Origin: Gonapodya sp. JEL0774
Taxonomy: Eukaryota
Length of the DNA: 64,000 nucleotides
Assembly (NCBI GenBank): GCA_027604505.1
Contig: JADIIX010000003.1
Coordinates: 1-64,000 of the forward strand
Reading direction: 5' to 3'
The notes beneath the pieces are model-generated. The model had not been told where the DNA came from, searched no databases, and saw nothing but the letters and a program-made list of their open reading frames with translations. Shown piece by piece: positions 1 through 63,128 of this stretch; position 1 is the stretch's first letter; every line of letters begins with the position of its first letter. Position numbers and translations under genes: made by a program.

Positions 1-389
1 GTGAGGAGGGGGTTGGGGGGGGGGGGGGGGAGGGGGGGTAGGGGACAGGCGCACAGCCCAAGTGGAGGAAGAAAATATCTACTCCTTGTAGTTGAGCTAC
101 TGTTTATCCGTGTAGTTGTCGGGTATAACGCGTGTCCAGATATAGCGGGGCCGCCAACCCAAGTATATAGTCTCGGTTGGTGAAAGGGAATATGGGAATT
201 GTAGAGAAATAAAGACTCGGTCAGTAGATGTTGAAACCGTGCAAGGAGGTTGCGCAGTGGTGGTTTATTGCCACCTTCCACAGATGTCACGAGAAGCAAT
301 TAATTTCTTGGAAAAGAAGATTCAAATGAAATTTGATCAGTGAAGATGTGTTAGTTTACCACTAATGCATAGTGATCTACTGGAAATAG

Positions 390-3366
390 TGCTCAAGTGT
401 ACGACTCCGCGTGCTGCGCAATATATCTTCAAGATTGATCAGTCGGAGAGTCGGAGTTGAGTCTTGGTGGAAGGGTTTGGTGGGGGGGGCCTTGCATTTC
501 AGTCGTGGGTGGTGGACGTATTGATGCCTGCAGGACCAACCTGTGTGCAGTCCCTGCTTCGCTCCCAGGGTGGTGGTGCTCTGGGAGCGGAAGGATTGGT
601 GCTTACAAGACTTAAACTCGGAACTATCGCCCCGATCACGAAGTGCGACGACACGACGACATGGAGGCGGATGCACTACGAAGGCGGAAAAGGCCAAAAG
701 GTGTTCCCGCTTATCACAATGGCACGAGTCGCCCCCAGAGAACTTCTGTAGAATCCACCCAGTACTCCATTCTAGGAAGGGCAGAGAATGTTAGAAGAAC
801 TTTTCTATACAGTCACATGGTGATCTGGGGTGTCGGAATGTTCGCTTTGAGTGTGATTCAACTCCTGTGGAACGGCAGGAGGGAGGATTGGGTTCGCGGA
901 CTGAATGAAATGGCTGCATCTCGCGATTTTCAGCCAGCCAAGTGGAATCCACTGATTTGGGGTGGTGCCACCACAGAAGACGTTGTCGTCACTTCGCATT
1001 ACGGAGCAATGCTCATGTTCTTAGCCGGGTCCGTGTTCGCTCTCTTTTCGCTCGCGACGGCTGATGCAGTTAAAGCTAATCTATCTACGTGCCTGGCCGG
1101 GGTGAGCTCTCCCAACTTGTTATGATTTGGGTTCACTCTCACAAAATGTTCCATCAAAAACTTGTTGCACGCCACGATGCCCCTCCCGAATTCGTACTCT
1201 TCCCCCCCCCCCCCCTTCTTCACAGGTTGATATATGCTCATTCTTAACTTATGTGGTTATGATTCTCGGAATAAATCCAATAACACGAGGTGGGACATGC
1301 AATAGGATGGACGAAGACGACACATTCATCTAACTTTCCACCGTCCTCTTCGAAATCTCCAATCTCTTTTGTTGTTTGTGTTAGATTCTTTTGCATCCTA
1401 CACCTTTCACCCCATCCGCTATCTGAAACATGCGACTTGCACCCCATCGATAATATTAATGGCACATGATATTACCGGCGCCACTGCTGCACATCCTGGT
1501 ACGCGCCTTTCGCGACCGATCTTTTGGCCGCTGACTTGCAACTATGGTATCCACATATTTGGGTGAGTGCTGCAGCTGAGATGCACCGACACCTGTTTCT
1601 TACACCCTCAAAGATACCTGGTTGTGGCGCTCCCAAAACCGCTCGCCTATTTAGCTCTCTTCGGGTCTTTTCTTTGCTTTTCCGTCGTCATCAATGACTT
1701 TAATTTGTGTTTCGGTAACGCAATTACCTGGAGGGCTCGAAGGGAGCAAGAGTTGCGGTACGGAAGAAGCCAAAAGGGGAGCCCCGCCATCCCAGAGTTC
1801 GAAGCAGCCTCTATTGATGATGATGAGTTTGATGGTATTGTCGACTCATTGTCTCTGTGGCTCGCGTGGATATCATGTGTGGGTGCGTGGTGCTCGTTTC
1901 CCGTTCTCTTTGTCGGTGAGTTTTGTGGCGCGACATGATTGTCCCCTCTTAACGAGCGAACTTCTTCACAATTTTATGTTACCTACAGGGTTGATCACAG
2001 GGACAATCTCCTACGCGACATTCGAGGCTGGATTCTCCATTGCCGATGTGGGTAAAGTCATCAACCTGAAAACGATCTGTTCACCGCTCTTATCAAACAG
2101 GTGGTCGCCAAAGTTTTTCTTACCTTCATCCTTACTAATGCAAACTTCGAACTGACAATCTTAGATCGATACCGACGGGAAGCAGCTCTCTCTCGCCATT
2201 CTAAGCGTCTTGAAAAACTGGTGGAAATGTTGGGCAGGGAGGTCCACACAAAGCTTCCGCTCACATCAATAGGATAGTAAGTCTCAGTACGATTTGAATT
2301 ATGATCACGAACGTAATCTCACTCCCCGTTGTGCGCATTAGTGGCTTTGATAGGCCCATTACCGTTACATCACCTCGTTTCATTCCGTACGTCACTGCAG
2401 TGACAGCAGACATAGCACGGTTTGACGTGTGGGCAACAGATCAGGATGTGAGAATTTGGACACTGTGTACTGAAACTGTTACTCAAGATGTCTCGTCCTG
2501 TGTTTGAAGAGTGGTGCGGTGCTGCGATCAGCTCGACAACTTTGGCTAGAATGTGACGAGCTTTGCAAGAGGTTCCAAGTGACACGAACCGACATTCTGG
2601 GGTTTGTTCCTCGCTTGTGCGCCACGCTTTTATTTTGTGCGTTGATGGCGCTCCACAATACCTGTAGGGAATCCTATGTTGCAGTTTCTGGTTTCCCTGT
2701 CGAATCGTCGACAACACCGACGAACGACTGTCGCCGCGCAGTTGAATTCGCTATCGAGCTTTTGAGCTTAGCTCAACAATTGAGTCAAAGAACGGGTCGC
2801 CCTATCGACCTCCGGATCGGTATCCACCTGGGTAGTGCGGCGGTGGCATATCTAGAAGGTGGAGGAGAATCCACTCCAGGCTCAGAGTATTCGGATCTCA
2901 CGGCATCGCCGTTGGATATGGCCACGGTCACCTATTCTGAACAAGAGAGAGCAGGGGATAGGGCGTCGGTGTCAAAGTGGTTCCTGGGAGGTAATGCTGT
3001 GGAGTTTGCGACAGAGTTAAAGGTGACATCAAAGGTGAGTGTATTGCTCGCACCTTTTTGTGTTTCCTGTCAACATGATTCCTTGCGGGTCAGCCTGGAT
3101 GTATTCACATATCTGATGCAGTTTATCATTCTATTCTGGGAACAAGAGCGTTTGTCGTGGAAGGTCCCGAGTGCGTTTTTGGTAATTCTCTCTGTTGCTT
3201 GGAGTTGACCATCTGACAAGTACTTCGCAGACTCATCGATTTTGACCCTTTGCGCCACAAATATATTTCGGGAAATGTTGCAGCGACATACTGGGTCTTG
3301 GGCCACGCCAGCGATGAGATGCTGATGGAGGAGGAAGGGGATACCGTGCTAGCAGAGGAAGAATAG
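390..3366 (+). CDS. Microbial (type I) rhodopsin fused to a class III guanylyl-cyclase-like domain (RhoGC/CyclOp family), atypical; multi-exon, 5' end uncertain
   Basis: Manual splicing gives introns at 1102-1225, 1290-1384, 1563-1613, 1916-1988, 2048-2100, 2277-2341, 2448-2509, 2602-2667, 3035-3093 and 3171-3230, all GT..AG and frame-preserving. Rhodopsin segments: KANLSTCLAG|VDICSFLTYVVM, HPIRYLKHATCTPSIILM (helix C), LCFSVVINDFNLCFGNAI (helix E), AWCSFPVLFV (helix F) and FEAGFSIAD|VVAKVFLTFIL (helix G, DxxxK). Cyclase segments: VTAVTADIARF, QLWLECDELCKRFQVTRTDILG|ESYVAVSG, LRIGIHLG, KWFLGGNAVEFATEL, PGCIHISDAVY and TYWVLG. Stop TAG at 3364-3366. The part upstream of about 780 is tentative. 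Confidence 0.9.
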
Positions 3367-3649
3367 GTTTACAGTTCAGGGTGTCGCTTTACCCCACCGT
3401 TAATGCACTGTGCAGCAACTCTATTGCGTGATACTAAGAGAGATTTTTAAGATGTTCGTACCAATGCTGACAAAGGAGGTAACCTCCGCTAAGCCCCTCT
3501 TACAAAAAGGGTGACACGTTGGCTGTGGGAGAGCTGGTTCTAAAGTTAGCTTCCGAAATGCTCCTGAACCAGTTTTGGTTCCGCTCGGGGATACTGAAAG
3601 GCTTTTCCGAGTAACGTATTCCAAGCGATACATACTTGGACACCTACTG

Positions 3650-4763
3650 ATGGCAGCATTCCTTGCCCAAAATTTCAAAGCCGATGCCTGTGAATGCGTA
3701 TTCATCCCCTCTTGGCTGGCTGGCACCGCCAACTTACCTGTTTCATGCTAAGACTCTCTCTACAGGCCCACCTACAACTCCAATTTGTACAACCACATTT
3801 TCAATTTCCATCAGCAGAAGTTCCCTCGTGCGGCTATCCAAGCAAATGGCAGCGCGATCGACGGATGGGAGAATGTCGTGGATTTAGGGTGACGCTTCTG
3901 AATCGAACTTTGGGAGTGTGATGCCGGATGATAATCTTAATAATTTGCAGATGCGGAACCGGACAGGCAACCGTTCCCCTCTCTAGAGAATTTCGAAATG
4001 CATTAGGAGTGGATCCCTCCACCAAGATGCTCGAATCGGCAAAAATCGCACCGAATATAACCTACAAGTTGGGCAGTGAACATGACATTCCGGTGCCAGA
4101 GGGAAGCGTGGATTTGGTTGCAGCCGCACAGTGCGCTCACTGGTTTGACACTGAAGCGTTCATCTCTGAAGTTCGTCGTGTTCTGCGACCCCACGGCACG
4201 ATTGCACTTTGGGGATACTCGCTTGTCCACGTTCGGGACAAACCACTTCTCACTCAGCTTTTGCGAGAAACCGCTTATGGTACTGGTGAAGGTCAAGTTG
4301 GGCCGTAGTACGTGCACCCCGTGATTGAGCGTGCTGTGTTGAGTTGCCTCATCATTGACTCCCTTGTTTTTTGACATTACAGCTGGGAAGATGGGAGGAA
4401 GATTTTAGAGAACAAGTATGAGAGCATCAAGCTGCCGTTCAAGGAACAGAAAAGGTGATCCAATTCTTTGAGGTTGTCTTCATTATGCGTCTGTTTCCTA
4501 ACCTTTGTTCGGAAAGGATCTACTTTCCTTCACCCACAGAGGGTACAATGATTGATCTAGATATGCCGCTCCCGGCATTCAGGCACTATGTCGGTACATG
4601 GTCTTCTTATAAACACTGGAAGGAGGACCCCAAGAACAATGGAAAGAGTGATCCTTTGGACGCCATGGTTGCAAAGATTGCCGAGGAACTGGGTGGTTCG
4701 GGAGATGAAACGGTGGTACAGTTAGAATGGCAAGGGGTTCTCATATTGGCGACAGTTGATTAA
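3650..4763 (+). CDS. SAM-dependent methyltransferase (Methyltransf_11, Crg1/Tmt1-like), multi-exon
   Basis: Spliced MAAFLAQNFKADAYSLYRPTY...VVDLG|CGTGQAT (SAM motif I), GVDPSTKML, VDLVAAAQCAHWFD, VRRVLRPHGTIALWGY and TWSSYKHW. Confidence 0.9.
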
Positions 4764-14493: not shown

Positions 14494-15372
14494 TCAAGTA
14501 TGTTTCACTTTCAAGTCGTCCTGTGATTTATGTTTCTGGTTCTCCGCAGTAGTCGCTTCAGCCTCCTCCTTTGGTACTCCACCCTGCACCTCTCGTTCAC
14601 GCTCATTCTCGGCTCCCGCATCCACACCGTCACGGTCAACAACATCATCCCCATCCAAGTCAGAACCACCCAAACCCCCGGGATTAATGAGAGCGCCAGC
14701 AGCGGCCGCAGCTTGCATCGCTGCCGCAGCGGCGGCTGCAGCGGATGCCGCGTCGTGGTCTCCAACATCACCAGATCCATTGTGTGTCCCGTGAAGTTGT
14801 TGGAAGACAACGAATGAGTGCGCGGCGGGATGCTCAGAGGGATCCATGACGATAGATTGTTGGTAGAGTGGTTGAGCAGTTGCTGCCATGCCGAGCAGTG
14901 CGACACCACCATGGTGGTGGAGACCACCTGACGCTGCAAGGCGCACAGAAGTGTCTCCATGGCGTTTGAGAATGTTTGAAACGGTTTGTTGGGTGATTGT
15001 GACGCCATGGCGCTCCTGAACCATTCGGACAGCGTCAATTTGGCGACGAGACGGCTCTTCCACCAGCCACTGAAAAATCTCGTCCTCAAGCTCAAGAGAG
15101 CACTTTGGCGGCTTCCCTGCCTTCCGAAGAATGGGTGCGCTGTTGTCAGGTGGGTCGGGCATGGCCAACCATCGATACATTGTCCTTAGGGAAACCTGGT
15201 ACGCCTTAGCAATATCTTTTGCGGAGAGTGTAGTGTTCTCTTTTAAGTATTTGCAGACCTGGATGAGCTGGCGACGATCCAGCTCAGGCAAACCGGACGA
15301 GGGGGGAGCATGGACAGTGACCGTATGTGGGTTTGGCGCGATATTGAGTTGATGCTCGTTCTCAGCGTCCAT
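14494..15372 (-). CDS. Helix-turn-helix DNA-binding protein derived from the Tc1/IS630 transposase N-terminus, with no DDE domain
   Basis: LSAKDIAKAYQVSLRTMYRWL (HTH1), the GKPPK AT-hook-like linker, and EEPSRRQIDAVRMVQERHGVTITQQTVSNILKRHG (HTH2), followed by His, poly-Ala and acidic low-complexity sequence. Confidence 0.75.
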   Translation of the reverse strand: MDAENEHQLNIAPNPHTVTVHAPPSSGLPELDRRQLIQVCKYLKENTTLSAKDIAKAYQVSLRTMYRWLAMPDPPDNSAPILRKAGKPPKCSLELEDEIFQWLVEEPSRRQIDAVRMVQERHGVTITQQTVSNILKRHGDTSVRLAASGGLHHHGGVALLGMAATAQPLYQQSIVMDPSEHPAAHSFVVFQQLHGTHNGSGDVGDHDAASAAAAAAAAMQAAAAAGALINPGGLGGSDLDGDDVVDRDGVDAGAENEREREVQGGVPKEEAEATTAENQKHKSQDDLKVKHT

Positions 15373-15724
15373 CACGTTGAGATGATTGGAACAGTGGACG
15401 GAGCCTTGAAGAAGTGCCGAGGGGCTTAACGCGCTGATTTGGGAGTGAGTGCGGTTTCCGTGAGGTTTGGCGCTTTTTCTACTCCACAGCTGCTGCGCAA
15501 AGAGTTCCGCTGTCGGACTTGGTGATCGGTACAATCGTCTGCAATAAGAAAGTCAAGAGTGAAGTCGCGCAGATGAGAAGACAAGGCCCGGGTGCTCACA
15601 ATTAGCGATGGCAATCGTTTTGTCACGAGGTTTTGTGTGGCAGCAACAGCATAGAGGTTCGGCTAAACACTAATAAGCATTCAAACTTTTTCAATTTCAT
15701 CAACCGCCAACTAAGAGGTCACAC

Positions 15725-42175: not shown

Positions 42176-45100
42176 TCAATTACTCATGCCTGTGGTTACG
42201 CATCCTACTGCGAGAAGCCCGTTGTCGGCCCTATAAAGTACTCTCCACCCGCTTCCAACCCACTCCGGTTTCACGAGAAACCTAAATCTCACAAAACCAC
42301 GATCCCCGATTTCCGAAAGACGCTCCAAAGCTCCAGTGTTATCAACCTTGAGAACGGTTGGAGCTGGGTCCCCATCTGAGAGTTGCAAAATAGCATCGTC
42401 TACAGGAGGCGGGAGTGGCTGCAGATCCGCATCGCACTGCAGAAGTGGAGATGGACTTCTAGACCTGTCATCCAATCCTACAGGAGGAAACTCCATATCT
42501 CCAATGTCTACGCCAACGCCAGGCGTCGTGGGCTCCAGCACATTGATTCGTACCACAGAACTTTTGATTACATCTTTGACGTCCGAAATCTCCACCGTCT
42601 GGCGAATGCTACCAATGTGCAGGATTCCTTTTCGAGCGATGCGTTGAGATTCGTCACTCTTTCGGATGCTATCCTGTGCTGGTCGAAGAACCTCAACCTG
42701 TGTTTCCACTTCCCACGCCCCGGCCGGAGTAGGAACGGTTGCAGCACTCTCCCCAATTCGTATTTGAATCCGAGATCGAACATTTGTTGAAACAATGGCA
42801 TGACCCCGTCGTAACCTGATTGTCCGTACCTTCCTTTCTGGTACAAAGGGGGAGGTCTCAAAATCGCCGCTATCCTCGAATCCCACGTCTTCACTGTCTT
42901 CAGCATCACTCTCGGATAAACCAAAAAGTCCTGCGACGCTGATATCTATTTTATCTCTTTGTCGCCCTGCGGATGGTGATATTCTTCCGCGATGCGGCGT
43001 TCCAGGTGAGCCCGACGAACCGAGGTTTCGGTACATTCCAGAAGATGGAGACCTCGTCCCTTTAGGACTCTTTGACAAAAATGAAGGGGATTTAAAGGAT
43101 GTCGGAGTTGAGTTGGGGGAGCGAGAATTTTTAGGCACCCGCGTCGTTTCTGCACCATCAAAATTATCCTTTTGACTCCCTTTCCGGCTGTTTGAAGCAT
43201 AGAAAACCACGTTATCCTCTAAACATTCAATGGCCAGACTGCATGCGTCACCCGCTCTGGCAACTTGGACAGGAACGCGCTGGCGGTGCATCGACTTCAC
43301 ACGACAAGGCAGGAAGTCTCCTGCACGATTAATTGGACCGAGGAAGAGAGTTCGGGTTTCTGTGATTGGTGCAAGAGTTCCCGACAGCAGTATACCAGCA
43401 ACAACCGGTCCAACATCTGGGAATACGATGCAGTTCATGTATGCGGGCTGGAGTCATTGGATATGGACTTACCTGGTACCGTGAAGACTTCCTCAATCTG
43501 GAATTCCACATTACTGTCCACTTTCTCTTGCCACCGAAATCTATTGACTTTGGGGAGAACTCGCAGGAACTCTACAAGCTCGTCGAGGCCGTCCTCCGTC
43601 ACAGAGCTCACCAAAAAGACTGGCACAACATTGCGAGCAACAAATCCCGCTACCAAAGAATCCATCTGACGTGGACTAAGCGAGGAAGGCGACTTAAGCA
43701 ACGCCAATTTGATGCGTTCTGGTGTGGTGTGAAGGGGCTCATCGACATCACTTGCACGGTGCCTTTTCTGAGCCTTCAAATCATCGAATTGCGGGAGGTC
43801 CGCCTCCCAATCGAAAATGCCACCAACCATCTCAGCAATATCTTCAAGAGTCTTCCTTACATTGATCCCCGAAGCCAAATCCACCTTGCTTACCACAATC
43901 GCGGCACGAACGCCAAGTCCATTGCACATGGTCCAGGTTTCTTTTGCAACGTCGCCCACATAACCTTTATCGCTTGGTACAACCAGGAGTGCAGCATCCG
44001 GACCATAGCTCATCAGACCCGTAACTGATGTCCTTCGATACTTTGGATGTCCGGCGGTGTCTACGAAATGAACAATTCGAGAAGAATTTCCTACAATTTC
44101 TTCCCAAGTACCGTGGGTGCGGTAATTCAGAATAGAATGAGACGGTGAAATTGCGTCACCCGGAATCATTGAACTTGTCGTGACATGAGAGAAAAATGAG
44201 AGCTCGTCGTCATCATTGGCCGGGTTCATCTTGCGACGACCGTCGAGAGATCCAGGTGTGCCCGGTCGATCTGTGCCAGGGGAATATGCGACTGGGAACC
44301 CGATGAGCTGGTGAGCAAGATGAGATGTGCGCCCCGTCAAGACTTCGTGCTTGTGGCGGAGGAGATTCAGACGCGCTCGGCCTTTAGAGTTGTCAGGCAC
44401 ACCATGCGTGAGTACTCCAAGAAGTGTTGACTTTCCGGCATGCTCAGGACCCAAGACGATGACTCGCACTTCGACGAAACTTTCCACGGCAGCTGGCCGA
44501 ATGCCACCAGAACTAGAGTCTGCAGGCTTCGTGGTCTCCATTGGTGCATCATGCTTCCTTTCTAGCCCTCCAAATAGATCAATTCCGAGGTTCTGCACCT
44601 TTCGAACGACTACCTCTGCCACCACTCTGCGATCTTCTGAGGTTGCCCCGAACTCTTTTGAGTTCTTTTTATAACTGGAAGGTTGCACAGAGTCCACATC
44701 AGGCCCAAACATGGAAGCAAGTTCCATATCTGCAGAGGCGATGTCCGTGATATGTGGCGAACTCTTTGTCGAGCCTCTTGTAGTACTTCCCGGAGAGTCA
44801 GTTCGAGCGGCTGTTTCCTCAACGGCAGCACCAAGAATCACGAAAGCGTTACGTGCGCGAGTGGATTTGATCGAAGTTTTGAGCGATGGTGAGTTACGCT
44901 CTGGGTACGAAAATTGAATCGAATGCACTACATTGGGAACCAAAGTAGTATTTCCTGGAGAAGCGTTCGGTGCGGGGTTTTTCTCGTCCTCCAGTTGGGA
45001 CGATTTGGAACCACCAACGTGACCCTCCATTGCCTCGAGGTCAAACATGGCGCTCACGAATCCGTCCTCCCTCTCACGAAGCCTGGTTTCCCGTGCGTCC

Positions 45101-45763
45101 ATATCCTGTTCGAAGTTCTCGCGCTTCTTCTTCTTCTTCTCGCTCCGAGTCAAACCGTCCTCAGTCGTTCGGCTGAGGCCATAATCCCCACCAGGCCGGG
45201 GTAAGACTGTGGAGCGGTGCTGCGAAAGCTTACTTAGATCCGCGTCCTTGACGTAGCGCTTTGTGACCTGGACAACTTCAGCACCAGACTTGGCACAGAT
45301 CTGCCTTAATGTGTCAAGGGTGGCTTGTAGGTCCGCCGGCGCGAGCCCCGCCGGTGTGCCATCGTCGGAAACACCCAGTTCATAAATGGCTACGCCGCGT
45401 CCCTCGTGAATTCTGGAAATAGTTGTGATTGAGTCATAATCGGGTGATCGGAAGGCACGGTTGGCGTGGATGAAACGGTTTCTGGGATGCAGCAGTCAAA
45501 ATTTAGAGTGAAATTACCTCCATTTCATCTGAGTTGTGAGATGCTCCAGTCTCTCCGCGTTCACATCCGTTAATCGCAGCTTTTGGTTTGGGTTCAATGT
45601 TTGCATTGCAACCCACAAGTGTCAGTCGCGGCCGCCTACACAGAGAAGGAACAGAAGAATCAAAACTTGCCTTGTACTCAACGTTTCCTTCCTCCACCTC
45701 GGGAGGTAGCTTCGACAAGGCCGCCAGGGACGACACTAGCAACGAGTCATTGAATTCCCCCAT
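42176..45763 (-). CDS. GTPBP1/GTPBP2-like translational GTPase with long low-complexity inserts
   Basis: LPPEVEEGNVEYK, GVAIYELGVSDDG, GPEHAGKSTLLGVL (P-loop), LLRHKHEVLTGRTS, FVDTAGHPKY, SKVD, VSSVT and the domain II/III beta-barrel motifs. Confidence 0.9.

Positions 45764-59461: not shown

Positions 59462-63128
<3,667 letters not shown>

What the first reader, a model, noticed from the sequence alone, without database searches (positions are those of the whole stretch)
1417..1461. Lysine-histidine in place of the rhodopsin counterion Asp/Glu-Trp (RYLKHATCTP)
Seen: helix C reads R-Y-L-K-H-A-T-C-T-P-S-I-I-L-M. Established: the family pattern is R/Q-Y-x-D/E-W-x-x-T-x-P (bacteriorhodopsin R82, D85, W86, T89, P91). 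Here the D85 position is Lys (AAA, 1426-1428), W86 is His, T89 is Cys and D96 is Met, while the helix-G Asp and retinal Lys are kept. This is the opposite of NeoR, which has extra carboxylates. Inference: a positive charge beside the Schiff base should favour an unprotonated UV-absorbing chromophore, an anion-dependent pigment, an alternative attachment site or a retinal-free sensor. I know of no characterised rhodopsin with this combination, but I cannot verify that without a search.
Basis: partly seen in the sequence, partly recalled or inferred. Interest (0 to 1): 0.9.

Follow-up and report, generated by a model that had tools for sequence, protein, structure and literature searches.

The report
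Fungal rhodopsin-cyclase with lysine counterion site
An intact but mis-annotated gene of the zoospore-forming fungus Gonapodya encodes a light-sensor-plus-enzyme protein whose sensor has a positive lysine where relatives carry their key negative charge and whose enzyme half lacks its catalytic residues, so it likely acts as a non-catalytic, UV-absorbing or retinal-free partner of the fungus's normal light-activated cyclase.

Summary
Codons 1417-1461 read R-Y-L-K-H-A-T-C-T-P-S-I-I-L-M, with AAA = Lys at 1426-1428 and CAT = His at 1429-1431.

- **Gene:** the motif lies in exon 3 of an intact 11-exon gene (661-3366, +; 665 aa) of Gonapodya sp. JEL0774. It belongs to the fungal rhodopsin-guanylyl-cyclase (RGC) family. 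The NCBI model (HDU93_005133) starts after helix C and is wrongly fused to the next gene.
- **Uniqueness:** in a profile alignment of 100 other family sequences, 94 have Glu and none Lys at the counterion position. 96 have Trp and none His at the next position. Cys at T89 and Met at D96 are family-typical.
- **Retained residues:** the helix-G Asp (D348) and the retinal Lys (K352).
- **Cyclase domain:** it is degenerate (E497→D, D501→E, C566→F, N573→E, R577→E, plus a ~35-aa insert). Most of this is shared with the only orthologue fragment found (G. prolifera, 54% identity).
- **Canonical copy:** the same genome also encodes a canonical RGC.

I read it as a fast-evolving but selected pseudo-enzyme subunit. 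I predict it cannot hold a protonated Schiff base.

Not obtainable here: helix C of an orthologue, sequencing reads, expression data, or a 3D model.

Verdict: new variant of a known kind; moderate interest.

The parts
661..3366 (+). Whole gene, 11 exons, 665 codons plus stop. Exons: 661-1101, 1226-1289, 1385-1562, 1614-1915, 1989-2047, 2101-2276, 2342-2447, 2510-2601, 2668-3034, 3094-3170, 3231-3366.
   Evidence: All 10 introns are GT-AG and 51-124 nt long. Exons 4-10 agree with NCBI protein P0001. The last intron (3171-3230) and the C-terminus were chosen to match G. prolifera P0002.
661..1101 (+). Exon 1: short N-terminus, extra helix TM0 (aa 47-72), helix A and the start of helix B. Not in the NCBI model.
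   Evidence: Hydrophobic segments. The profile match starts at aa 114.
1385..1562 (+). Exon 3: helix C and the C-D loop. The NCBI model starts inside it at M194.
1417..1461 (+). Helix C motif R180-Y-L-K183-H184-A-T-C187-T-P189-S-I-I-L-M194 (the finding).
1426..1431 (+). K183 (AAA) at the primary counterion position and H184 (CAT) at the retinal-flanking Trp position.
   Evidence: Lys and His were each seen only in this gene among 101 aligned sequences.
2045..2112 (+). Helix G D348 (GAT 2045-2047, last codon of exon 5) and retinal Lys K352 (AAA 2110-2112, exon 6), giving D-V-V-A-K across intron 2048-2100.
   Evidence: The same splice is used in P0001.
2137..2411 (+). Linker from N361 to the metal Asp D430 (69 residues), with P401 aligned to the transducer-element Pro.
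   Evidence: The stretch N393 to P430 (BeRGC numbering) is 41 residues here, 38 in most RGCs and 45 in the canonical Gonapodya RGCs.
2342..3366 (+). Class III cyclase homology domain (exons 7-11). Residues: D430 kept, D470 (for E497), E474 (for D501), R522 kept, F578 (for C566), E585 (for N573), E589 (for R577).
   Evidence: Pfam PF00211 E = 4e-6 on exon 9. PDB 6sir E = 1.5e-16. Residue table.
2852..2977 (+). Insert of about 35 aa between the R-I-G-I-H strand and K-W-F-L-G-G (57 residues where relatives have 22).
   Evidence: A similar insert (53 residues) is present in G. prolifera P0002.

Best explanation
Window 661-3366 (+) is an intact 11-exon gene of Gonapodya sp. JEL0774 for a rhodopsin-guanylyl-cyclase-family protein whose helix C has Lys-His where relatives have Glu-Trp and whose cyclase domain lacks the base-binding and transition-state residues; it is predicted to be a non-catalytic subunit whose pocket likely cannot hold a protonated Schiff base and which would act by pairing with a catalytically complete RGC of the same genome.

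Shown directly:
- The gene structure and the homology to RGC rhodopsins.
- The unique K183/H184.
- Retained R180, D348 and K352.
- The cyclase substitutions, and their conservation in the G. prolifera orthologue fragment.
- A canonical RGC elsewhere in the genome.

Inferred:
1. R180, K183 and perhaps H184 stand against a single carboxylate (D348). The Schiff-base proton would therefore be disfavoured. Retinal, if bound, would absorb in the UV-violet; otherwise no pigment forms.
2. A homodimer would have two all-acidic, Asn/Arg-less sites and make no cGMP.
3. D430 and E474 could supply the metal-binding half of one composite site. The other half would come from the Glu, Cys, Asn and Arg of the canonical RGC, as NeoR does with RGC(a). 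This protein would then tune cGMP output rather than drive it.
For: Gene and family:
- The profile match is E = 3.5e-37 for the rhodopsin part and 1.2e-13 for the unannotated first 193 aa.
- PDB cyclase hits 6sir, 5oyh and 6ao9 score about 1e-16.

Pocket:
- Lys and His are each seen only in this gene among 101 aligned sequences.
- 25 of 40 family-conserved rhodopsin columns are kept. This is within the range of NeoRs and other divergent members (17-31 of 37-40). The kept columns include R180, P189, W320, E341, D348, K352 and N361.

Cyclase:
- D457 is kept. E497→D, D501→E, C566→F, N573→E and R577→E.
- G. prolifera P0002 has D, E, F, D, E at the last five positions and the same insert.
- NeoRs keep both Asp residues but have N→T and R→K.

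Selection:
- The ORF is intact over 11 exons.
- With the observed 46% amino-acid divergence, about 12 stop-creating hits would be expected in 665 unconstrained codons (P of none about 5e-6).
- In 21 of 60 family-conserved columns, both orthologues share the same derived residue.

Canonical partner candidate: P0238 of the same species has E-W and all catalytic residues.

Published precedents (Broser 2023, section 6 read):
- CcNeoR3 (Gln at ci1) absorbs at ~410 nm and still forms functional heterodimers.
- CcNeoR4 (Ala at ci1) shows no retinal absorption and has a degenerate cyclase.
Against: - No helix C from any orthologue could be obtained. Conservation of K-H is therefore unknown, and it could be specific to JEL0774.
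- No reads, RNA or 3D model were available.
- The linker differs in length from the canonical Gonapodya RGCs (41 versus 45 residues, N393 to P430 equivalents). The NeoRs and RGC(a)-type chytrid sequences all measure 38.
- No second RGC gene lies in the 64 kb window, unlike the head-to-head NeoR/RGC(a) clusters. Only 660 bp upstream is visible.
- Glu in place of D501 may not bind metal.
- Orthologue identity is not significantly higher in family-conserved columns (42/60) than in variable ones (38/68; Fisher p = 0.14).
- The gene evolves about three times faster than the canonical RGC (54% versus 85% identity).
- With 15 of 40 conserved columns changed, losing both E and W has a chance of about 0.13. 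The pair need not be specially selected.
- CcNeoR4, the nearest precedent, was non-functional in all tested combinations.
- A buried neutral Lys with D348 as counterion could still give a visible pigment.
Confidence: 0.5

Rival explanations
1. A relic paralogue with no selected light or signalling role. It would be a duplicate RGC that lost counterion, Trp and catalytic residues under relaxed constraint, and is transcribed little or not at all.
For: - The stem branch is very long (2.76 changes per column).
- Identity between species is 54%, against 85% for the canonical RGC.
- The conservation test is not significant (p = 0.14).
- Both annotation pipelines missed the rhodopsin part.
- CcNeoR4 is a published non-functional analogue.
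- Galindo 2022 (passage read) suggests the Gonapodya pathway may be reduced, since it lacks BeCNG1.
Against: - The 665-codon ORF is intact across 10 canonical introns. The probability of no stop under neutrality is about 5e-6.
- The orthologue is retained in a second species, with shared derived residues at five catalytic positions and a shared insert.
- The retinal Lys, D348, R180 and the helix F Trp are kept.
Confidence: 0.22
2. A working photoreceptor with a new kind of pigment. Retinal would bind K352, and the chromophore would be stabilised by a bound anion, as in halorhodopsin, or by D348 with a neutral K183. The signal might be sent through a cyclase-fold domain that no longer cyclises nucleotides.
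For: - K352, D348, R180, W320, F323 and P324 are kept, and 25 of 40 conserved columns are kept.
- The basic trio R180/K183/H184 lies on one helix face (sequence).
- The derived acidic residues in the cyclase pocket are conserved in two species.
Against: - There is no experimental or structural support.
- Trp at the W86 position is 96 of 100 in relatives, and by established BR structure it packs against the polyene. His there may impair binding.
- Ala at ci1 already abolishes the pigment in CcNeoR4.
Confidence: 0.15
3. K183 is a sequencing or assembly error, or a strain polymorphism of GAA (Glu).
For: GAA to AAA is a single transition. No reads could be inspected.
Against: - The adjacent His needs three changes from TGG.
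- The whole domain is diverged (15 of 40 conserved columns changed).
- No homopolymer context forces an error at 1426.
Confidence: 0.03
4. K183 serves as an alternative retinal attachment site.
For: A Lys side chain at the counterion position would reach the Schiff-base region (inference from BR geometry, recalled).
Against: The canonical K352 is retained, so there is no need for a second site. No precedent was found in the searches.
Confidence: 0.03

Closest known systems
Homodimeric fungal rhodopsin-guanylyl cyclases (BeRGC/BeGC1/CyclOp, CaRGC; the RGC(b) branch of Broser 2023)
   Same: - Same architecture: TM0 plus 7TM rhodopsin, coiled-coil linker, class III cyclase.
- Best PDB matches are their cyclase domains (6sir, 5oyh, 6ao9).
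- R251, P260, W352, E373, D380, K384 and N393 equivalents are kept.
   Different: - E254→K and W255→H.
- No Cys-rich N-terminus.
- About 30-aa E-F loop insert and about 35-aa cyclase insert.
- E497, D501, C566, N573 and R577 are all changed.
- Very long branch in the tree.
Neorhodopsin (NeoR), the modulatory subunit of heterodimeric chytrid RGCs
   Same: - The cyclase lacks the Asn/Arg pair while keeping the first metal Asp.
- A divergent rhodopsin that need not drive activation (Broser 2023 discussion).
- A canonical RGC is present in the same genome.
   Different: - NeoR has three carboxylates (E, D, E), whereas this protein has K, C, D.
- NeoR keeps D501, E497 and C566.
- NeoR genes sit head-to-head with their partner and share its linker length.
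- This gene does not group with NeoRs in the tree.
CcNeoR3 and CcNeoR4 of Chytriomyces confervae (Broser 2023, section 6 read)
   Same: - They are natural RGC-family paralogues without a carboxylate at ci1.
- CcNeoR3 (Gln) absorbs at ~410 nm with a deprotonated Schiff base.
- CcNeoR4 (Ala) shows no retinal absorption and has lost metal- and guanine-binding residues and the transducer element.
   Different: - Those carry neutral residues, whereas this one carries a cationic Lys and has also lost the Trp.
- Different phylum (Monoblepharidomycota).
- This gene has an orthologue in a second species.
UV/violet microbial rhodopsins with a low Schiff-base pKa (TAT rhodopsin; apusomonad ApuRs)
   Same: The predicted outcome is the same: an unprotonated Schiff base in the dark state.
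   Different: TAT has Thr at the D85 position (abstract seen). SfApuR2 keeps both Asp residues (passages read). Neither uses a basic residue, and they are not enzyme rhodopsins.
Halorhodopsin-type chloride-binding pockets (T at D85; recalled)
   Same: No carboxylate at the D85 position, with the Arg and the helix-G Asp kept. An anion could serve as counterion.
   Different: Halorhodopsin has a small polar residue that makes room for chloride. A Lys side chain would fill that space. There is no close sequence relationship.

Membership tests
Fungal rhodopsin-guanylyl cyclase (RGC/CyclOp) family | Type-I rhodopsin domain homologous to RGC rhodopsins | tested here: met
   hmmsearch with a profile of 15 RGC rhodopsin domains gave E = 3.5e-37 for aa 1-372 and 1.2e-13 for aa 1-193. 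Pfam PF01036 did not hit any single exon at E <= 1.
Fungal rhodopsin-guanylyl cyclase (RGC/CyclOp) family | Retinal-binding Lys and preceding Asp in helix G (D-x-x-x-K) | tested here: met
   D348 and K352 align to BeRGC D380 and K384.
Fungal rhodopsin-guanylyl cyclase (RGC/CyclOp) family | Glu counterion and Trp in helix C (R-Y/F-x-E-W) | tested here: not met
   K183 and H184. Among the 100 other sequences, 94 have E and 96 have W.
Fungal rhodopsin-guanylyl cyclase (RGC/CyclOp) family | Coiled-coil linker with cyclase transducer element | tested here: inconclusive
   A helical-looking linker is present and P401 aligns to P430. The length is 41 versus 38 or 45, and the motif reads L-V-E-M-L-G rather than L-x-K-M-M-P.
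Fungal rhodopsin-guanylyl cyclase (RGC/CyclOp) family | Class III cyclase fold | tested here: met
   PF00211 E = 4e-6. 6sir E = 1.5e-16 in two stretches.
Fungal rhodopsin-guanylyl cyclase (RGC/CyclOp) family | Complete catalytic set (two metal Asp, Glu/Cys for guanine, Asn/Arg for the transition state) | tested here: not met
   D430 is kept. The others read D470, E474, F578, E585 and E589.
Fungal rhodopsin-guanylyl cyclase (RGC/CyclOp) family | Light-activated cGMP synthesis | not testable with these tools
   Needs expression and an assay.
Neorhodopsin (NeoR) | Carboxylate triad ci1/ci2/ci3 (E136, D140, E262) | tested here: not met
   This gene has K183, C187 and D348 at these positions.
Neorhodopsin (NeoR) | Cyclase with Asn/Arg lost but both metal Asp kept | tested here: inconclusive
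   Asn and Arg are lost and the first Asp is kept, but the second is Glu and the guanine-binding residues are also lost.
Neorhodopsin (NeoR) | Head-to-head gene cluster with, and obligate pairing to, an RGC(a) partner | tested here: inconclusive
   tblastn found no second RGC-like gene in the window (best other hit E = 0.57). Only 660 bp upstream is visible. Pairing was not tested.
Neorhodopsin (NeoR) | Phylogenetic position in the NeoR clade | tested here: not met
   In the quick IQ-TREE of 37 rows, the gene pairs with G. prolifera P0002 (support 100) on a long stem, outside the NeoR clade. The long-branch caveat applies.

The most novel reading that the evidence does not exclude
A natural microbial rhodopsin with a lysine at the primary counterion position still binds retinal through K352. 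It forms a UV-absorbing (unprotonated) or anion-dependent pigment. It serves as a modulatory subunit of a fungal cGMP photoreceptor. This would be a second, independent origin of NeoR-like heterodimeric signalling, in Monoblepharidomycota, a phylum so far filed as having only homodimeric RGCs.
Probability: 0.15. Interest if true: 0.75.

Novelty: new variant of a known kind. Interest (0 to 1): 0.45.

Why it matters
- **For rhodopsin biophysics:** if the protein binds retinal, it would be the first natural type-I rhodopsin found with a cationic residue at the counterion position. It would be a ready-made test of how far the Schiff-base pKa and colour can be pushed, and a possible UV-sensing or light-insensitive scaffold for optogenetics.
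- **For cyclase biology:** if it does not bind retinal, it is still a second-species-conserved pseudo-rhodopsin on a pseudo-cyclase. It would extend the CcNeoR4 type of dead RGC paralogue to another fungal phylum. That would suggest catalytically asymmetric RGC complexes are older or more recurrent than the Chytridiales-restricted NeoR/RGC(a) system.
- **For annotation:** both public gene models of this lineage are wrong, and the published RGC census (Broser 2023, supplement searched) does not contain this gene.

Tried and rejected
- **Whole genome:** none is held for this window.
- **Sequencing runs:** none was listed, and no RNA holder was listed. The read check at 1426 and a splicing check could not be made.
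- **Orthologue helix C:**
  - Word search with exon 3 (longer proteins): 1 of 3 candidates passed, the window's own P0001.
  - Word search with P0001 residues 1-470: only P0001 itself among 8000 scored.
  - Exhaustive HMMER search of P0001 residues 1-431: only 2 proteins at E <= 1e-30, itself and the 202-aa G. prolifera fragment P0002, which lacks the rhodopsin part.
  - Two metagenome scans gave none. The profile of exon 9 plus P0002 matched 201 pattern stretches, and exon 3 matched 598; none was confirmed by tblastn.
- **Exon 3 against PDB:** only 2 unrelated hits at E >= 0.75. P0001 against PDB gave 33 hits, none a rhodopsin.
- **Pfam on nine exon pieces:** only PF00211 on exon 9.
- **Literature for Lys at the counterion position**: nothing relevant. 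The mutation-name search returned only unrelated proteins. 'Lys instead of' and 'replaced by lysine' refer to the D96 donor position.
- **Accession search:** 0 papers.
- **Earlier notes of this scan:** none on this genome.
- **3D model of the rhodopsin domain:** not made. The only protein id available (P0001) lacks helices A-C, and the spliced protein is a joined sequence that I did not hand in.
- **Complex prediction:** not run. Any two class III cyclase domains would be expected to pass by likeness to solved dimers, so it would not separate hetero- from homodimer.
- **First version of the last intron (3182-3220, 39 nt):** rejected in favour of 3171-3230 after comparison with P0002.
Full report
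**1. Observation.** The window sequence and a spliced gene model confirm the reading. The codons are R180 (1417-1419), Y181, L182, K183 (AAA, 1426-1428), H184 (CAT, 1429-1431), A, T, C187, T, P189, S, I, I, L and M194 (1459-1461).

**2. The gene.** The motif lies in exon 3 of an 11-exon gene on the + strand (661-3366; 665 codons). All 10 introns are GT-AG and 51-124 nt long.
- A word search with exon 3 found one database protein, P0001. This is 'hypothetical protein HDU93_005133 [Gonapodya sp. JEL0774]', and it names the organism.
- That NCBI model begins at M194, just after the motif, so it lacks helices 0, A, B and C.
- It agrees with my exons 4-10. It then jumps from ...EGPECVF into the downstream methyltransferase gene (PF08241/PF13649).
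- The G. prolifera fragment P0002 reads ...VVEGPEYIDFDPHR... This made me move the last intron to 3171-3230, and it gives the protein its own C-terminus ...TYWVLGHASDE....

**3. Is it a rhodopsin?** Pfam did not recognise any single rhodopsin exon. P0001 hit no rhodopsin chain in the PDB, and exon 3 alone hit nothing meaningful.
- A profile built from the rhodopsin domains of RGC relatives matches the spliced aa 1-372 at E = 3.5e-37 and the unannotated aa 1-193 at E = 1.2e-13 (Z = 1).
- That alignment runs through both exon junctions without gaps.
- The family profile itself matches solved rhodopsin-phosphodiesterase (7d7q, E = 6e-52) and bacteriorhodopsin (1m0k, E = 7.5e-21).
- hmmalign maps K183 to BeRGC E254, H184 to W255, C187 to T258, P189 to P260, W320 to W352, D348 to D380 and K352 to K384.
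- The link to BR D85, W86, T89, P91, W182, D212 and K216 rests on the recalled helix C and helix G motifs.

**4. How unusual is it?** In an hmmalign census of all proteins fetched, 101 (including this gene) have helix C and G columns filled.
- Counterion column: E 94, Q 2, D 1, C 1, L 1, G 1, K 1.
- Next column: W 96, R 2, Y 2, H 1.
- Lys and His occur only here.
- The set contains at least one non-RGC (P0077) and some near-duplicates.
- Cys at the T89 position (14 of 101) and Met at the D96 position (12 of 101; no carboxylate in any) are family-typical.
- Of 40 rhodopsin columns that are at least 75% conserved in 94 members, this protein keeps 25. The canonical JEL0774 RGC keeps 31 of 40, two NeoRs keep 28 and 31 of 39, and other divergent members keep 17-25 of 37-40.
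- With 15 of 40 lost, losing both E and W by chance has a probability of about 0.13. The pair is not statistically singled out.

**5. The cyclase half.** Its best PDB relatives are the cyclase domains of CaRGC and BeRGC (6sir 1.5e-16; 5oyh and 6ao9 about 6e-16).
- The residue table shows D457 kept (D430), E497→D470, D501→E474, C566→F578, N573→E585 and R577→E589. The K-G-K loop is lost.
- There are 57 residues where relatives have 22 between R545 and C566.
- Class III cyclases build each site from the two Asp residues of one chain and the base-binding and Asn/Arg residues of the other. This is established knowledge, and the review PMC8815786 says so in the passages read.
- A homodimer of this protein would therefore have no complete site.
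- The NeoRs in my set keep D, E, D and C but have N→T and R→K. Loss of Asn/Arg with retention of the first Asp is the NeoR-like part of the pattern.

**6. Relatives and rate.** The exhaustive HMMER search with P0001 residues 1-431 found 906 proteins at E <= 1e-3. Only two reached E <= 1e-30: P0001 itself and P0002.
- P0002 is KXS18228.1 of G. prolifera JEL478. It is a 202-aa model that starts inside the cyclase domain.
- It is 54% identical (104 of 194). It shares D, E, F and E at four catalytic positions, an acidic residue at the fifth, and the insert.
- The canonical RGC pair of the same two species (P0238 and P0255) is 85% identical over 322 aa.
- In a quick IQ-TREE of 37 rows, this gene and P0002 pair with support 100 on a stem of 2.76 changes per column.
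- They join another divergent G. prolifera paralogue (P0003, KXS20541.1) with support 94. The tool warns of long-branch attraction for that join.
- P0003 shares the odd linker ending L-x-K/R-x-V-x-E-L-G.
- A profile search found a canonical RGC in JEL0774. This is P0238 (718 aa), with R-F-L-E-W and all catalytic residues.
- On what is probably the same contig (same 80.8 kb length), it also found P0260 (HDU93_010088), with C566→T and N573→T.

**7. Is the gene under selection?**
- *For:* the ORF is intact. With the observed amino-acid distance split between the two lineages, about 12 stop-creating substitutions would be expected in 665 unconstrained codons (P of none about 5e-6). This assumes the C-terminal divergence is representative.
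- *For:* in 60 family-conserved cyclase columns, both orthologues keep the consensus in 21, share the same derived residue in 21 and differ in 18.
- *Against:* identity is not significantly higher in conserved columns (42/60) than in variable ones (38/68; p = 0.14).
- dN/dS could not be computed because no G. prolifera DNA is reachable.

**8. What is known.**
- Broser et al. 2023 (PMC10622942; sections 5, 6 and 10 read; supplement searched). The paper files Monoblepharidomycota under homodimeric RGC(b).
- Its sequence table lists two G. prolifera and two JEL0774 entries, not this gene.
- It reports CcNeoR3 (Gln at ci1, ~410 nm, probably deprotonated, still a functional heterodimer partner). 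It also reports CcNeoR4 (Ala at ci1, no retinylidene absorption, no canonical transducer element, metal and guanine residues lost, non-functional in all combinations).
- Galindo et al. 2022 (PMC9616733, passage read) noted only a truncated CyclOp and no BeCNG1 channel in G. prolifera.
- Five of the six literature searches turned up no natural rhodopsin with Lys at the counterion position. The sixth found no paper naming these accessions.
- The library holds only open-access papers and preprints, so this is not proof of absence.

**9. Mechanism (inferred).** R180, K183 and possibly H184 lie on one face of helix C, and only D348 is a nearby carboxylate. A protonated Schiff base at K352 should therefore be disfavoured.
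- By analogy with CcNeoR3 and CcNeoR4, the protein should either carry an unprotonated, UV-violet chromophore or bind no retinal. Loss of the Trp makes the second outcome more likely than for a Gln variant.
- The cyclase half cannot catalyse alone. It could contribute D430 and E474 to one composite site with the canonical RGC, in the NeoR manner.
- The unequal linker lengths, the lack of a clustered partner in the window and the Asp-to-Glu change all weaken that step.
- My estimates: about 0.5 for a selected, non-catalytic modulatory subunit; about 0.2 for a relic; about 0.15 for a genuinely new working pigment or sensor.

**10. Verdict.** The gene is intact, mis-annotated and absent from the published census. 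The context tempers the interest: a degenerate cyclase, fast evolution, published degenerate NeoR paralogues, no orthologue helix C, and no reads, RNA or model. I class it as a new variant of a known kind, with interest 0.45.

Noticed in passing
window 1459-4763 (P0001): The NCBI model HDU93_005133 is a chimera. It starts at M194 inside exon 3, dropping four helices. It is then spliced from 3181 into the neighbouring methyltransferase gene (PF08241/PF13649), whose own 5' exons appear to lie around 3500-3990.
   Followed up: partly
proteins P0238 and P0260 (Gonapodya sp. JEL0774, 80.8 kb contig, outside the window): Beside a fully canonical RGC, the genome has HDU93_010088, with C566→T and N573→T but Arg kept. 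This is a half-degenerate cyclase like a NeoR-type subunit, in a phylum published as having only homodimeric RGCs. Its annotated model starts in helix F, so its counterion is unknown.
   Followed up: partly
protein P0003 (G. prolifera KXS20541.1): This is a third, very divergent RGC paralogue. The first metal Asp is not conserved. E497→G, C566→V, N573→D and R577→V. It shares the unusual linker ending with this gene, and it is annotated only from helix F onward.
   Followed up: partly
window 1-40 and 1202-1216: There is a G-rich tract at the window start and a run of about 15 C in intron 1. These low-complexity tracts could disturb assembly or gene prediction.
   Followed up: no
window 14494-15552 (-): An ORF of 352 aa has a weak homeodomain-like HTH_32 match (E = 5e-6, below Pfam's cut-off). 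It may be a transposase remnant.
   Followed up: no
window 43435-45495 (-) and 61907-63040 (-): Ordinary housekeeping genes: an EF-Tu-type GTP-binding domain (E = 8e-16) and a PI4K PIK accessory domain (E = 7e-10).
   Followed up: no
proteins P0010, P0011, P0013 (Corallochytrium and unnamed ENA contigs): Several non-chytrid or environmental RGC-like proteins also have N573/R577 replaced (T/K, K/K, K/Q). One (P0013) reads Q-Y-L-D-R in helix C. Asn/Arg-less rhodopsin-cyclases seem widespread outside Chytridiales.
   Followed up: no
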